Shown piece by piece: positions 36,901 through 42,900 of a DNA stretch of 64,000 bases. The DNA is taken from contig CM035355.1 in the NCBI GenBank assembly GCA_020137815.1, positions 3,472,001 through 3,536,000 on the forward strand, written 5' to 3'. The notes below the pieces were generated by a model. That model had not been told where the DNA came from, did no database searches, and worked only from the letters and a program-made list of their open reading frames with translations. Position numbers and translations under genes: made by a program. Within the stretch, counting starts at the first letter, position 1, and each line of letters starts with the position of its first letter. Origin of the DNA: Hormiphora californensis. Lineage: Eukaryota > Animalia > Ctenophora.

Positions 36901-39900
36901 ACACCAGTGTTAGTTGCAACGACCATGTAATGCCCACAGATATCAATATCAATTGGAATTCCCTCGTTCTCACTCAGTACCATCGTTTGTTTCACTGTGC
37001 CCTGGTAGGATGGTGGTTGGGGGATTGCTGAACTTGGGAAAGTAAACGTAACAAGAATGGATAATAGAAATTTCTGTCTGACCCCGTTTTCATTCTCAAA
37101 CAGTGTGTTCATATATCGGGAAAGCGCCGCCAGGTAGAGAAACTTTCACCGCCCGTTCCACTATGTACCTGGAAGTTTCTAGCGGTGATGGAACTAAGTT
37201 CCGCAGTGTATAGGGTTTGGTCGTGAATAGCAATTAGAGGAGGTTCAGTAATATCAAACGTTCCTGCGAGAGAGATGGGAACATAAGCATGGGGTCAAGT
37301 ATCCCAGGGTGGGCTAAATCAGAGCCCTCCATATGGAAGTATAGTAAGGCCATCGGAAACACAAGGTTGGAAATTATTAAATTTTGGGAAATATTTAGTC
37401 CCATCTCCGTACCGGATGGGCGAGCAAAGTTCTTCTCCTCATTTACTTCGTACACCACAACCTTTTTAGTGTTCCACACCACCACGTGACTCTCAGTGTT
37501 ACACACACCTAGGTGATAGGGACGGATTGTTAGTTCTGAACTCTAGAATTAATTGTCTCACCCCTTATCTAAACAAACAAACACCCATCCTGAGATGAGA
37601 TATAGTAACAAGTGTACTGTGAATATTTTAGGGGATTGAGCCTCTTGGAAGCTCAATTCTCACCGCGTATGTGAATGTCGGAACGGATGGGCAGTATTGT
37701 TGGTGGATCAAGGGTCTCGAGTTGTACGTGGTAAGGTCCAACCTGGACCACAGCACTCTAAAATAAAAAAGGGGGGGGGTCAAGGAATGGATTTTTGTAA
37801 TTGGATCATTGGACTTTTGTAACAATTCATAGTAGAACTCATCTTTGAGTAAACAAAACATCCCGTTTCGATCATCCCCCATTATACCTTGACACTAATG
37901 CTGGTGCTGATAGGTTGTTCATTCAGGATAACAACTTCACAGATATTGTTAGCTGCCAGCAGGGGATGAACTGGACTCCACTGTATCTGTATGAAGCTGT
38001 CTGATAGGTCAATGGTGGGCAGGAATGTCCAGTGTTCTAAACTGTACTGGCCAGGTCGGTGCTGCCACATGGCAATCTTACCATTCACCATACCACCTGA
38101 TAAAATATAGATTTGGTAACATTTAACAGATAAAATTGGTAATGAGGTTAAAAATTAGCGCACAATTAGCCAATTTCAATATCAAACTACACGTCTGGTC
38201 CACAGCCAGTGATCAAACTATGACATGAAATGAATTCTACCCACCTGCAAGCATTCGTTTGGTCTTGCTGTAACTCAAGCAGTTGATCATATCGAGGGCG
38301 CCACCCAGAGAGAAGTTGTTATCTTTATCTAGATCCCACACTCTCACCACATCCTCCCCAGCAACCGTTGCCATGAGACCAGGACCCACCCAAACCACAC
38401 TCGTAATGGCAGATTTACCAGACAGTTTCACCTGACAAGAGGGGTAATTATTATATGGGTTATTGAATCTGAGCTAGTTTACAGAGCAGGCGCTTCCTTC
38501 AAATGGGGAGCTACCAATATAACAATGTCCATTCAGCGGTGAGACACTTACCTTGAGAATTTCAGTGAGAGACCCATCAGGGGCACACGTGTACTGCACA
38601 AGCATCATAGTGGTGGTTACAATTACAAGGATGTTCTTCGCCTCGTAAAGCAACATCGACTTGATCATCGAATCTGCTGTTGCACATTCCTGAAGGAAAT
38701 TGATAGTAAGAATTCCGTTGCTATGGGAGGGGGGGGGGTGACACGTAACACTTTGTAACATGTAACGTGCACAAAAAGTTTTCTGCACATGTTACAAAGT
38801 GTTACATAGTGTTACAAAGTGTTACATAGTGTTACAAAGTGTTACAAAGTGTTACATAGTGTTACAAAGTGTTACATAGTGTGTGTTGTGTGTGTGTTTG
38901 AACCTCCCGTACTTCCTCCCACTTTGCTGGTGTCTTACGGGGCCAGCTCCCGGCGAATCAAAATTCTGGCGTTCCTCCCGAGCACCCCACACAAAGAGTT
39001 GCTCAGTAGTTCCACTAGTCAGTCCTGTCTAGGGACCCTCAATGGAGGATCCCCTTCGAGGGAAAGGCTAGCTTCACATTCGGTCCGCTTTTATTAAGTT
39101 TGCCGGTTACTAATCCAGTTAGTCACACAGCTGAGAGCACCAGTGTATTTCCACCAGTCTTACGTTACTGGGTTCCCCCAGAAGTAGGTATATTGCCGAG
39201 CGATGACGCGGCTTCTCTGCCCACACGAAGATGAGAAACGTCATTTCTTCTACCAGCACTTGCCATTTAAGGCCAGAATCCTGCTTCAGGACCAGAGTGG
39301 TGGCTCGGACCACCGATTGGTACTCTATGTACCTAATCGGCCCGGTTTGTAGTGCTTCTAATACGCAGTCTAGTGAAGCGGCACTCTCCCTCAAGGGGTG
39401 CTCCATAGCCTGTCAGCCTAAGGTGGCAACCATTGGGATGCTCTTTCGAGCTCGTTTTGTACCACCCTTCTACATTTTAATGTCTGGGCGGCCCAACTCT
39501 CCGGATTATACTATCTGCCTGGGGTGGGGGGCCGGTTTTGATTAGGCAGAGTTTATTTGAAGAGACCAGATTTCTTTATCAGTGCAGTTAGTTTGCCTAG
39601 GTCGATTTTCTGGTCTTTGTCGTAGATGTTTTGTTTTATGTTTTGGTAGCCCAGTGTGTATCTGAGGTGATCTAGATCTGGGCATGTTATTAGGACATGT
39701 TCCGAGTTCTGTTTTTGGTTGCATAGAGGGCAGTTCGGATTCTCTCTTGGATCTCTGTGTGCTAAGGAGGAGTTCAAGTTGTTTTGTCCTGAGATTGCCA
39801 GTGTGACGTTTCTCATTGTGATCTTATCTGTGAACCATATTTTCCGGTAGTCTTTGTCTATCTTTGTCATTATCGCAGTGGTAAATTTGTTGTAGTTTTT

Positions 39901-42900
39901 CTCTTTTAGCTTTGTTTCTGCCACTGTTTTGCAGTAGTCAGCCAGGCACTTGTTTATCTGAGTTTTGGTCCAGTTGAGGAAGTTTTTTGTGCTAGCACTG
40001 TCTTCTGTTGCTTCTTTCGCTAGTTTGTCTGCTCGTTCGTTCCCAGGTATGTTGGCATGAGCCTTTACTTTTACTATTTCGATTTCATTTGTGTTTTGGA
40101 GGGCTCGTAGGTTGCGTATTGTTTCTGATAGCTGCTTTGAGTTGCAGTAACCTCTTGTTAGCCTTGTCAGGGTGGTTTCTGAGTCAGTGTGTATTCTGAT
40201 TTTTTGCCCTGTCGTATTTAGATCATATAATTTTTTCGCAGTTATGTTGATTGCATGCATTTCTGCTTGGTTGATTGCGTTTATACTTTATAGGGGCTAG
40301 TGGAGCTTGTAGTTCGAGTTCGTTTCCATCCTGGTACATGACCACTCCTGCCCCTGTCTTTGACGAATCATCTTTTTCAATTTTTGATCCATCTGTGTAT
40401 ATCTCGATTGCCATATTGATAGTTATCCTGTGTCAGGATTCCTAATTTTGGCAGCGCTTCCGCAGGAGCACCATGCCCCTACTCGGTTTTTTAGGAGGTT
40501 CACCCGTCGCAGTACTCTGGTATCTGCTGTATTCTGGGGCCTGTCAAAGAGCTGACAGGGGGCTGGGGGTAAGAGCTGGCATCACTCATATTCAAGGTTA
40601 CAAATCTTTAAATTTGTCTTTTGTTACAAATATTTAAATTTGTCTTTGTTTCATCTCACAACTAGGGCTCAGCACTTTGGCACCTGGTTTGAGGGTGTGT
40701 CATAGGGCTGGTTCCCTCATTAGATATGTACTGGGCGAGCTGATAGGGAAGAGAAAGGAGAAGATCAGCTGCCTCGAGAACAGATCTCTACATTAATACA
40801 ATTGACCGCATTGTTATGTCACATCAGGCGAACAGTGACGCGGCTAGGGGCTGATAGGGGAAAAGAGGGAGGAAAGTTTTGGAGAGGGGAAAGAGAAATT
40901 AAATTTTGAGAGGAAGGCGAGAATATCAGTGCCACAGAGAAAACAGCGATACCAGGTTCTGAATTCTCCCCCTAGAGTGTTACATAGTGTTACAAAGTCT
41001 TACATAGTGTTACAAAATGTTACATAGTGTTACATAGTGTTACAAAGTGTTACATAGTGTTACAAAGTGTTACATAGTGTTACAAAGTGTCACAAAGTGT
41101 TACATAGTGTTACAAATTGTTACAAAGTGTTACAAATTGTTACAAAATATTTACAAAATATATATAAGACGGTTGGTGAATAAGTAATTTGAACGACTTT
41201 GGTGTCTTTCTAGAACACATCTAAAAGTTTTAAATCATTTCTAGGGTTAAAACATACACTTTTTTACTAATTTGCGGATGTTTTGAGCCTCCGATGTCAT
41301 CGACTGTGGAAATCAGGGCTGAAATAGTCCATTTAGTAAAGAAAAATATGAACTTTAGACAACGGTAAAGTTTTTAGAGTGATATTAAAAGTATGAAATG
41401 CTCGGGGGCAAAATTCAGGGGCACCAGAACACAGTGGGTAATTATGCCGCTTGATGGTCGTATAGCAAACATAAAAAAATCTACTGTGAAATTGGCCTGT
41501 TTACCAAATCTGGAATAGAAACAATCCTTGTGTTTTAATAGAAAATTCCAAAAATTGTCTTTTTATTTCAAAAAATGAAACTCGGGAAGCTTGAGTATAA
41601 ATGTTTGATATTAAATAGACTTTTAAGCCATAAAAATGTCTAGTGATCCTTAAAAAGTACATAATCCCCTAAATTAGTTGTATTTCTAGCTGTTGTGCAC
41701 CCAGTTTTTATAAAAACTAAAACATTTGTTTTATTAATAATGCAGTGTAGCGGTGAATAGCGGTACATAATTTTTGTTGCAGGATACTCGGAAGGGTCTA
41801 TATTAACACGTGTAACCCTTGAATTTTGCGAAGTATGACGACGACACTACTATTTTTACTCTTATTTTCGTAAAAATAGGGTAATTTTACTATGCGCACA
41901 GAAATGTTCACCGCCTATGAACGGAAAATCCAATTACCACATACTAAAAAGCATTGAAAAGACAAAATTATGATGAGTATGGTTAACATCTAGTTTGTCA
42001 GAGATAACAAACATATAATTTAAGAAAAAAATCTGAAAATTGATAAATTTGACTGCCAAAATTGATTTAATTGCCAGAATTTAAGTTTGCGCATATTGTT
42101 TTATTCATAACATAGGCATATCTTAATATCTTTTGATGCGGTTTTTTGTACTGGCTAGACCTAACAATTCTCTATTGGGTAGCAAATTTGCAGCGAAATC
42201 GATTTTTTTTCCTAAACGACCATCGTTACCCACTGTGCAGAAATGTCCATTTTTGCATGCCTATAACTCATTGATTACTTAATTTTGACTATTCTAACTT
42301 TTTGTAGATCATTTTTTATGCTTGAAGAGCATTCCTAGAAAGTTTCAAGTCGATATTTCAAGCAGATCGGGAGATAATTTCGGCTCAGGGGCAATGCCCA
42401 GGGGACAGAACACCCCATGCTCAGGGGCACGGTGCAGGGGCTACTTTTTAATTACCTATAATTAATTAATTAGGCAAAAAATCAAAAATCCGGCCACGTT
42501 ATGACACGTAGTTATACTACTAGAACACGCCTACAAAATTTCAGGTCGATATCTCAAAAAATGTGGCCACAATCGCTGCCTGAAATTTGCCCCCCCCCCC
42601 CCCGAAAAAAAGACCTACGTTTGTATATATGATCGCAAAAGGCAAGCTTCCCCTCGTCCGACCCGAAGTTGGGAGATTCGTCGAAACAGCAACCTTCAGG
42701 CTGTTAAAATATTTTTTGATGCGCGGCGGCCTGTTTATTATAGTAGGGTCGGTTGTGGGAAGTTGGGTCTGGAATTTTAAATTTGATATGATTAGGGACT
42801 CTATAAAAAGTCCAAAGTACCATCCCACAGGTCTCTACCACCCCCGGTTCACTAATTAGTCGTAATTATGTGATTTATGACGTTATCGCCAATTAGCACT

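What the first reader, a model, noticed from the sequence alone, without database searches (positions are those of the whole stretch)
38883..40975. RNase H-only retroelement with its own ATG and long non-coding ends
A 5'-truncated LINE would have RT-coding sequence before RNase H. Here there are ~560 nt of non-coding, partly pyrimidine-rich and hairpin-rich sequence, then an ATG placed exactly at the domain start ([11 protein letters not shown]). The ~285-aa RNase H plus CCHC ORF keeps its catalytic residues and is followed by a ~670-nt 3' UTR and a CA tail that matches the TG target. Inference: a non-autonomous satellite retroelement that supplies RNase H in trans and borrows RT from a partner LINE.
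Basis: partly seen in the sequence, partly recalled or inferred. Interest (0 to 1): 0.75.

Follow-up and report, generated by a model that had tools for sequence, protein, structure and literature searches.

The report
Shortened LINE keeping only RNase H
A 2.1-kb jumping gene, likely from a comb jelly, joins a start codon directly to the RNase H enzyme domain of a LINE, likely because the LINE lost its middle recently; this copy is frameshifted, and a longer relative with near-identical RNase H sits in the same organism, so a helper role is possible but unsupported.

Summary
The element is real (minus strand, 40975 to 38883): 561 non-coding bases, an ATG at the RNase H start, a 654-base structured 3' UTR, a CA tail and a likely 15-base target duplication. 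Contigs from three samples lack those 7 bases. The ATG-to-RNase H join occurs in contigs of three samples from two studies. The same runs hold a second upstream sequence that reads in frame as the LINE linker before RNase H, on a shared RNase H contig. So the element is most likely a young internal-deletion (bipartite) derivative, at about 1-2 haplotype copies in two samples and about 5 in one (rough, from depth). It would borrow RT from a parent that already has RNase H. A commoner relative shares both ends and lacks the RNase H core. Supplying RNase H in trans is not supported. Still open: a 77%-identical cluster whose listed members never exceed 317 aa, mostly on 2.3-2.7-kb contigs. It has noted bipartite LINEs in other genomes, none titled as RNase H-coding.

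The parts
40415..40975 (-). 5' non-coding segment, likely the parent LINE's 5' UTR; repeated in the organism; fixed 5' end at 40975
   Evidence: No coding similarity. Long contigs at depth 837-950 in X2 against about 40 for flank contigs. Different flanks follow 40975, 40980 and 40982 in contigs (table 7).
40409..40414 (-). ATG and junction; the two bases 40409-40410 fit both sides (2-nt microhomology)
   Evidence: table 7: a loose end behind 40410 (linker-type upstream; X2, X4, X6) and loose ends before 40409 (2 contigs in X4 that share the 5' segment and ATG, then continue otherwise). Bridging contigs: X2 40381-40492, X6 40381-40477, X4 40381-40438 (58 letters, short of the tool's 31-a-side bar on the upstream side).
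40005..40408 (-). RNase H domain (D-E-D-H-D complete), frameshifted in this copy; boundaries approximate
   Evidence: Pfam PF00075 on residues 3-136 of P0001, E 1.7e-17; residues checked
40280..40286 (-). 7-base tandem duplication that shifts the frame in this copy
   Evidence: absent from contigs of X1, X2, X5 (table 4)
39553..40004 (-). C-terminal ORF2 region with CX2CX7HX4C knuckle and native stop (39553-39555)
   Evidence: aligns to the end of P0083 at 60%
38899..39552 (-). structured 3' UTR, likely the signal recognised by the parent's RT
   Evidence: z -4.36; 85% identical to L002 over 902 bases that include it; an 80-base stretch 81% identical to L001; 3 of 163 predicted pairs change on both sides between only two sequences, which is weak
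38883..38898 (-). (CA)n tail
   Evidence: the same tail ends L002
38868..38882 (+). left copy of the likely 15-bp target-site duplication, in the minisatellite
   Evidence: Identical to 40976-40990; a 5- or 15-bp duplication is needed to keep the 10-bp phase (read from the sequence)
40976..40990 (+). right copy of the likely target-site duplication

Best explanation
This is likely a young, low-copy internal-deletion (bipartite) derivative of an RNase H-bearing LINE, in which a 5' non-coding segment and its ATG are joined in frame to the RNase H and CCHC end of ORF2, and which would be copied in trans by the parent's endonuclease and reverse transcriptase. Shown: the anatomy, the join in three samples, a second linker-coding upstream on the same RNase H contig, differing flanks at a fixed 5' end, and the frameshift in this copy. 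Inferred: (1) the linker-coding form is a full-length single-ORF LINE like P0083; (2) the 5' segment and ATG are that LINE's own 5' UTR and start; (3) the join arose by a template jump or DNA deletion at a 2-base microhomology; (4) the RNA, made from the parent's promoter, is recognised by its structured 3' UTR and primed by the CA tail on TG-ending target DNA, giving about 15-bp duplications; (5) the RNase H frame is open in other copies mainly because the derivative is young, not because a partner needs it.
For: table 7: the same loose end of at least 255 bases lies behind 40410 in X2, X4 and X6. By eye it reads in frame with 8 of 10 residues identical (one gap) to the linker before RNase H in P0056, and that linker aligns to P0083 residues 1128-1160. 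Both upstream forms feed one RNase H contig: in X2, 39916-40410 is a single 488-base contig with 2 other letters and the 7-base gap against the window. The two forms are therefore nearly identical and the split recent. Contig depths, junction against core: 203 of 273.5 (X2), 50 of 120 (X4), 208 of 506 (X6). P0083 is a 1443-aa endonuclease-RT-RNase H ORF, 59% identical, on contigs of 4.6-5.5 kb for 4 of its 5 cluster members. Both ends run at 840-950 in X2 while 40012-40225 is flat at 273.5 with an 80% likeness bar, so most relatives lack the RNase H core. X7 holds both ends and nothing at 40012-40439, which fits but is absence only. No GT..AG at the join, so canonical splicing is unlikely (read). 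Bipartite LINEs from internal deletion are established (PMC5786205 section 23 read; PMC3414825 passages).
Against: The parent was never seen whole: only 30 letters of its upstream were printed, and no genome is held. No protein over 501 aa and more than 59% identical was found, so the linker-coding form could itself be a longer RT-less element like the P0056 cluster. The join falls one codon after an ATG and at the first strand of RNase H, in frame, which a random deletion would rarely give. The T-rich letters after the ATG in the other X4 contigs (consensus of 2, agreement 0.67) do not look like this family's A-rich coding DNA, so 'the parent's own start codon' is unproven. Depth is not a copy number (tool's warning). 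No contig joins the two ends of the commoner relative (table 5).
Confidence: 0.62

Rival explanations
1. A selected RNase H-only satellite lineage: the short elements express a stand-alone RNase H-CCHC protein that helps their own or a partner's retrotransposition in trans. The linker-coding form and the P0056 cluster would be older members of the same RT-less lineage.
For: The in-frame join sits exactly at the domain start with all catalytic residues kept. In X2 the join is 74% of core depth and the core contig lacks the 7 bases, so some join-type copies likely have an open frame (inference). Sister cluster P0002/P0056 is 77-79% identical and groups with P0001 at 100/99. Of its 18 members 15 are listed: none is over 317 aa, 9 of the 15 start at the same Met 35 residues before the domain, and 11 of the 15 lie on contigs of 2266-2709 bases. 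Clusters of P0003, P0004 and P0008 do include longer members (514, 362, 503 aa). No matching RT-thumb protein turned up among 24 hits of 3541 candidates. RNase H can act on LINE intermediates in trans: host RNase H2 promotes L1 and ZfL2-2, and RNase H1 overexpression partly rescues (PMC6068448, passages).
Against: The window copy is frameshifted, and the 3 listed differences from contigs nearest the RNase H domain are all non-synonymous (only 40 of 124 rows were shown). In the sister cluster about half the listed members are cut short or start late, several at one A-run. Its Met is an ordinary linker position that is Met in other relatives too. One search also missed P0084, a known positive, so that blank is weak. 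No DNA of the sister cluster was seen. dN/dS of 0.10 (L002, 70 codons) and 0.12 (L001, saturated) cover the time as a LINE and say nothing on the short form. The commonest relative has dropped RNase H. Nine upstream ATGs precede the start, and no RNA evidence was obtained.
Confidence: 0.17
2. A one-off: a single insertion lost its middle once, during or after insertion, and never moved again. The extra depth in one sample comes from local duplication, pooling or uneven coverage.
For: In samples S1 and S3 the join is 41-42% of core depth. Scaled by hand to X1 and X5 this is about 1-1.5 times the lower flank depth (220 and 246), which fits one locus. No second flank was tied to an RNase H-bearing copy. 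No look-alike window was found in the scan.
Against: In X2 the join contig is at 203 against 39-41 for flank contigs. The window copy differs from the contigs by the 7-base duplication and scattered substitutions. The element has a complete 5' end, tail and in-phase target duplication.
Confidence: 0.15
3. A chimera: a 5'-truncated LINE cDNA ending at the RNase H start was joined by a template jump to the RNA of a different, commoner element that supplied the 5' segment and ATG.
For: The 5' segment is 3-4 times deeper than the RNase H core, and no contig shows it on the linker-coding form. Template jumps are reported for R2 (PMC3414825, passages).
Against: In X2 the 5' segment (837-950) and 3' part (859-921) have matching depths, as expected if they belong to one element family. 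Flanks of the 5' end are TG-rich, matching the CA tail.
Confidence: 0.06

Closest known systems
Bipartite non-autonomous LINEs from internal deletion: RIME (Ingi), NARTc (L1Tc), Bov-A (RTE), Vingi-1_EE derivatives, R2 and R2/R1 SIDEs (PMC5786205 passages and section 23 read; PMC3414825 passages)
   Same: 5' end plus 3' end of a LINE with the middle missing; no RT; tail and target duplication
   Different: Those are ORF-less and short. This one keeps about 1.5 kb of the 3' end with a whole RNase H and CCHC region behind an in-frame ATG. The parent looks like an I-group element but its clade was not fixed; the paper lists only RTE, Ingi, Vingi and R2 as sources of ORF-less bipartite forms.
Protein-coding non-autonomous LINEs HAL1 (L1), HeT-A (Jockey), Ag-Sponge (CR1) (PMC5786205 section 23)
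   Same: Non-autonomous, one ORF, RT borrowed
   Different: They encode ORF1p, which likely multimerises with the partner's proteins. This element encodes an ORF2 enzyme domain, and no function or selection is shown.
I-group non-LTR retrotransposons with RNase H (Ingi, I, Nimb, Loa, R1, Tad1, Loner, Outcast; list from PMC4640811 passage); nearest full-length relative P0083, nearest named relative P0005 (EukProt, Pleurobrachia bachei, 47%)
   Same: RNase H with D-E-D-H-D followed by a C-terminal CCHC; APE-RT-RNase H order in P0083
   Different: This element lacks endonuclease and RT. That the RT motifs of P0083 look Loa-like is my recall, not a tested placement.

Membership tests
Bipartite non-autonomous LINE | 3' part homologous to the 3' end of an autonomous LINE | tested here: met
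   ORF end 60% identical to P0083 to its last residue; 3' UTR stretch shared with L001
Bipartite non-autonomous LINE | 5' part is the 5' end of the same autonomous LINE | tested here: inconclusive
   5' segment is repeated, has a fixed end and continues into other sequence after the ATG in other contigs; no contig shows it on a full-length LINE
Bipartite non-autonomous LINE | No RT or endonuclease | tested here: met
Bipartite non-autonomous LINE | Several dispersed copies with the same junction (has retrotransposed as such) | tested here: inconclusive
   Junction in 3 samples; depth about 5 times flank in X2 but about 1-1.5 times in S1 and S3; no second flank tied to it
Bipartite non-autonomous LINE | Marks of target-primed insertion (simple-repeat tail, target duplication) | tested here: met
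   CA tail and 15-bp flanking repeat; the length is ambiguous (5 or 15) because the target is a tandem array
Bipartite non-autonomous LINE, ORF-absent type | No protein-coding frame | tested here: not met
   284-aa frame in contigs of three samples, broken in the window copy
Protein-coding non-autonomous LINE (HAL1/HeT-A/Ag-Sponge type) | Encodes ORF1p | tested here: not met
   Encodes RNase H plus CCHC
Protein-coding non-autonomous LINE (HAL1/HeT-A/Ag-Sponge type) | ORF kept by purifying selection in the non-autonomous lineage | not testable with these tools
   Copies could not be separated; dN/dS spans the LINE ancestry
I-group LINE derivative | RNase H (D-E-D-H-D) after RT, then CCHC, with APE endonuclease in the parent | tested here: met
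   P0001 residues; P0083 domains
I-group LINE derivative | Clade placement by RT phylogeny with labelled references | not tested
   No labelled references were at hand; the Atlas gave only unnamed arthropod and fungal RT-RNase H clusters
HDV-like ribozyme-headed LINE (R1, R2, R4, RTE, Ingi, LOA) | HDV-like fold at the 5' end | tested here: inconclusive
   No Rfam match inside the element at E up to 5; my descriptor found 0 here and 0 in 20 shuffles and had no positive control

The most novel reading that the evidence does not exclude
Comb-jelly LINEs have given rise, perhaps more than once, to RT-less satellite elements that express a stand-alone RNase H-CCHC protein under selection: a third class of bipartite LINE beside the ORF-less and ORF1-only kinds. 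It would act as a helper enzyme in trans for LINEs and their non-coding parasites.
Probability: 0.17. Interest if true: 0.7.

Novelty: new variant of a known kind. Interest (0 to 1): 0.36.

Why it matters
If ordinary, it is a young bipartite LINE from an RNase H-bearing parent in a little-studied animal lineage, with a shorter sister derivative and a TG-target preference: useful for repeat annotation and of modest interest. If the ORF is under selection, it would be a non-autonomous LINE that encodes an ORF2 enzyme rather than ORF1p, which my nine literature searches did not show. It would also give a natural test of whether a LINE's RNase H can work apart from its RT.

Tried and rejected
No genome is held, so copies could not be counted directly. 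No second copy lies in the window. No RNA holder was listed and nothing of X16 was laid; this says nothing on expression. Metagenome scan: 5 loci of 225 candidate stretches, none with the 5' segment. Genome and viral collections gave nothing. PDB sequence search: 0 hits. Rfam: 5 weak miRNA matches, all in the minisatellite edge and below gathering scores. The HDV-like descriptor gave no hit and was not validated. RT-thumb search for the sister cluster's upstream DNA: no close ENA hit, but it missed known positive P0084. Simple 5' truncation rejected: the upstream DNA is non-coding, repeated and has a fixed end. Canonical intron removal unlikely: no GT..AG at the join. Assembly error as the cause of the frameshift is not excluded, but a 7-base tandem duplication is not a homopolymer slip. 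I first read L002 as a tRNA-headed SINE; ARAGORN finds no tRNA there, and a truncated copy beside a tRNA-like fragment fits as well, so I do not claim it. No structure or complex prediction was run. Literature searches that listed no RNase H-only non-autonomous LINE (listings only, unless named as read). Repbase and most subscription papers are outside the library; no supplements were read.
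Full report
What is in the sequence. The element lies on the minus strand from 40975 to 38883, inside a 10-bp minisatellite (38790-38882 and 40976-41146). Fifteen identical bases flank it (38868-38882 and 40976-40990). In a tandem array such a match is cheap, but the array's phase is kept only if 5 or 15 bases were duplicated, which fits a staggered-nick insertion. From the 5' end there are 561 non-coding bases, an ATG at 40414, a stop at 39553, a 654-base 3' UTR and a CA tail. 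The 5' part has no similarity to 7 related proteins (best E 1.2) and holds 9 ATGs. It folds only slightly better than shuffles (z -1.96, 3 of 100), whereas the 3' UTR folds clearly better (z -4.36, 0 of 20).

The ORF is broken here. ATG to stop is 862 bases. The ATG frame ends after 63 codons and the remaining 244 codons are in another frame. The cause is a 7-base tandem duplication at 40280-40293. Read through with X at the break (P0001), the protein matches Pfam RNase_H over residues 3-136 (E 1.7e-17) and keeps D8, E51, D77, H119, D129 and the CX2CX7HX4C knuckle. Contigs of X1, X2 and X5 (three samples, two studies) all lack the 7 bases; the fourth run, X7, does not cover the place.

Host. 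No genome is held. Earlier scan notes call this genome a comb jelly (unchecked). The nearest named relative is a Pleurobrachia bachei protein at 47%, which agrees.

The junction. Laying contigs on 40350-40990 (X2, X4, X6, and X16 with nothing laid) shows a branch at the ATG. One path is the window's own: contigs 40381-40492 (X2, depth 203), 40381-40477 (X6, 208) and 40381-40438 (X4, 50; short of the tool's bridging bar on one side). The other path is a loose end of at least 255 bases behind 40410, with the same 30 letters in all three DNA runs. By eye these read in frame into the RNase H start, with 8 of 10 residues identical (one gap) to the linker of P0056; that linker aligns to residues 1128-1160 of P0083. 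P0083 is a 1443-aa endonuclease-RT-RNase H ORF, 59% identical to P0001. Both paths feed one core contig (X2: 39916-40410, depth 273.5, 2 other letters besides the gap), so the two forms are nearly identical over RNase H. Two contigs in X4 share the 5' segment up to 40409 and then go on into other sequence, so the ATG belongs to the 5' segment and two bases fit both sides. The removed part shows no GT..AG. This is the anatomy of an internal deletion or template jump. The limits are that only 30 letters of the linker path were printed and that no contig places the 5' segment on a full-length LINE.

How many copies. Depth is a rough guide only. In X2 the join is at 203, core minus join at 70, and flank contigs at 39-41: about 5 to 2 to 1. 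In S1 and S3 the join is 41-42% of the core; scaled by hand to X1 and X5 that is about 1-1.5 times the lower flank depth. So the join is in three samples but looks multi-copy in only one. Both ends are far deeper than the core in X2 (5' segment 837-950, 3' part 859-921), while 40012-40225 is flat at 273.5 with an 80% likeness bar. A commoner relative therefore shares both ends, leaves the path near 40450 and at 39946, and lacks the RNase H core; its middle was not seen. Loose ends behind 40975, 40980 and 40982 show other flanks, all TG-rich. This gives the wider family a fixed 5' end and a likely preference for TG-ending targets, matching the CA tail; these flanks cannot be tied to RNase H-bearing copies.

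Relatives elsewhere. Among 53 hits of 661 candidates of similar length, the closest is the P0002 cluster at 77-79%, sister to P0001 at 100/99 in a tree of 21 rows (rows chosen by me from the top hits). Of its 18 members 15 are listed: none exceeds 317 aa, 9 start at the same Met 35 residues before the domain, and 11 lie on contigs of 2266-2709 bases. More distant clusters include longer members that run into the RT thumb (P0069, P0073, P0079). Among 64 hits of 1892 longer candidates none beats 59%. This pattern fits a second RT-less element of about 2.7 kb, but also decayed, 5'-truncated LINE ends: several members are cut at one A-run, and the Met is a usual linker position. Their DNA could not be read. 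A search for RT-thumb proteins found 24 of 3541, none close from ENA, but missed known positive P0084, so it decides nothing. The HMMER search of representatives added only fragments and distant LINE ORF2 ends. L002 shares the 3' 900 bases at 85% and the CA tail. dN/dS against L002 is 0.10 (70 codons) and against L001 0.12 (saturated). These show selection on the LINE lineage, not on the short form.

How it most likely works. The RNA would start at the fixed 5' end, presumably from the parent's internal promoter. The parent's ORF2 protein would bind the structured 3' UTR, nick TG-ending DNA, prime on the CA tail and copy the 2.1-kb RNA, leaving a duplication of about 15 bases. All of these steps are inferred from anatomy and from known LINE biology. 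The RNase H frame is likely open in some copies because the deletion is recent. The likely partner has the same RNase H and the more successful derivative has none, so need for a trans-acting RNase H is not indicated. The best argument for function is the precision of the join: in frame, one codon after an ATG, at the domain's first strand. RNase H can act on LINE intermediates in trans (PMC6068448, passages), so a helper is mechanistically possible. I give the young deletion derivative 0.62, the selected helper lineage 0.17, the one-off 0.15 and a chimera 0.06.

Comparison with what is known. PMC5786205 (passages and section 23) divides bipartite non-autonomous LINEs into ORF1-absent (from RTE, Ingi, Vingi, R2) and ORF1-present (HAL1, HeT-A, Ag-Sponge) and has no occurrence of RNase H in its main text. 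PMC3414825 (passages) gives template jumps or recombination as origins of SIDEs. PMC4640811 (passage) lists the I-group clades with RNase H. The element works like a bipartite LINE; membership is met for the 3' part, the lack of RT and the insertion marks, and inconclusive for the 5' origin and for spread. It fits neither listed subtype, since it carries an ORF2-derived frame. Nine searches (listings only unless named above) showed no RNase H-only LINE; Repbase, subscription papers and supplements were not seen.

Verdict. Observation partly confirmed (the ORF is frameshifted here). Interpretation partly supported: non-autonomous yes, RNase H donor not shown. New variant of a known kind, interest 0.36; the novel case has probability 0.17 and would deserve 0.7.

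Noticed in passing
window 38890-39945 and 40450-40975: A relative about 2-3 times commoner than the RNase H-bearing forms (X2 depth) shares both ends and lacks the RNase H core; its middle was not seen. Likely a second deletion derivative.
   Followed up: partly
window 39608-39945: Contigs in X1 and X5 run from about 39945 back to 39608, suggesting a tandem duplication of this 338-base piece in some copies (tables 5c and 7).
   Followed up: no
L002 1-1024: 3' part of a related element (85%) with an in-frame internal deletion and a CA tail, preceded by a tRNA-like B-box fragment and a T run; ARAGORN finds no tRNA. SINE or truncated copy beside a tRNA fragment.
   Followed up: partly
window 40420-40440 (-): An AG lies 15 bases before the ATG, and the letters around it are kept in diverged relatives (loose ends at 40450); a possible splice or trans-splice acceptor. 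Two pyrimidine tracts ending in CAG lie further upstream.
   Followed up: no
window 9798-18527 (-): LTR retrotransposon: 442-bp direct repeats at 9798-10238 and 18087-18527 (97.7%), with gag-like, protease-RT-RNase H and integrase ORFs in three overlapping frames. Domain order suggests Ty3/gypsy (recalled).
   Followed up: partly
window 19749-20588 (-): Uninterrupted 279-aa uracil-DNA glycosylase ORF (Pfam UDG, E 7e-19), between the LTR element and an ORF1-like gene.
   Followed up: partly
window 20826-21869 (-): 347-aa ORF with no Pfam hit that looks like a LINE ORF1 (recalled resemblance); earlier notes describe ORF1-only elements in this genome.
   Followed up: no
window 38729-38882, 40976-41146, 51252-51485: The 10-bp minisatellite is very abundant in the organism (summed contig depth above 100000), recurs at 51252-51485, and has an inverted edge at 38741-38812 that draws weak miRNA matches.
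   Followed up: partly
window 42238-51050: Nested tandem repeats: 1.5-kb units at 97% identity built from smaller units, then a 96-bp array.
   Followed up: no
window 7378-8319, 22493-24864, 59509-60303, 61865-62095: Long inverted repeats; 22493-23163 against 24194-24864 is 99% over 671 bases.
   Followed up: no
window 54615-55205 (+): 196-codon frame with a class-I glutamine amidotransferase match (E 4e-7).
   Followed up: partly
P0151 and P0147: RNase H N-half (68%) and C-terminal piece, each on a 2677-base contig, possibly the same one; another short, broken relative.
   Followed up: no
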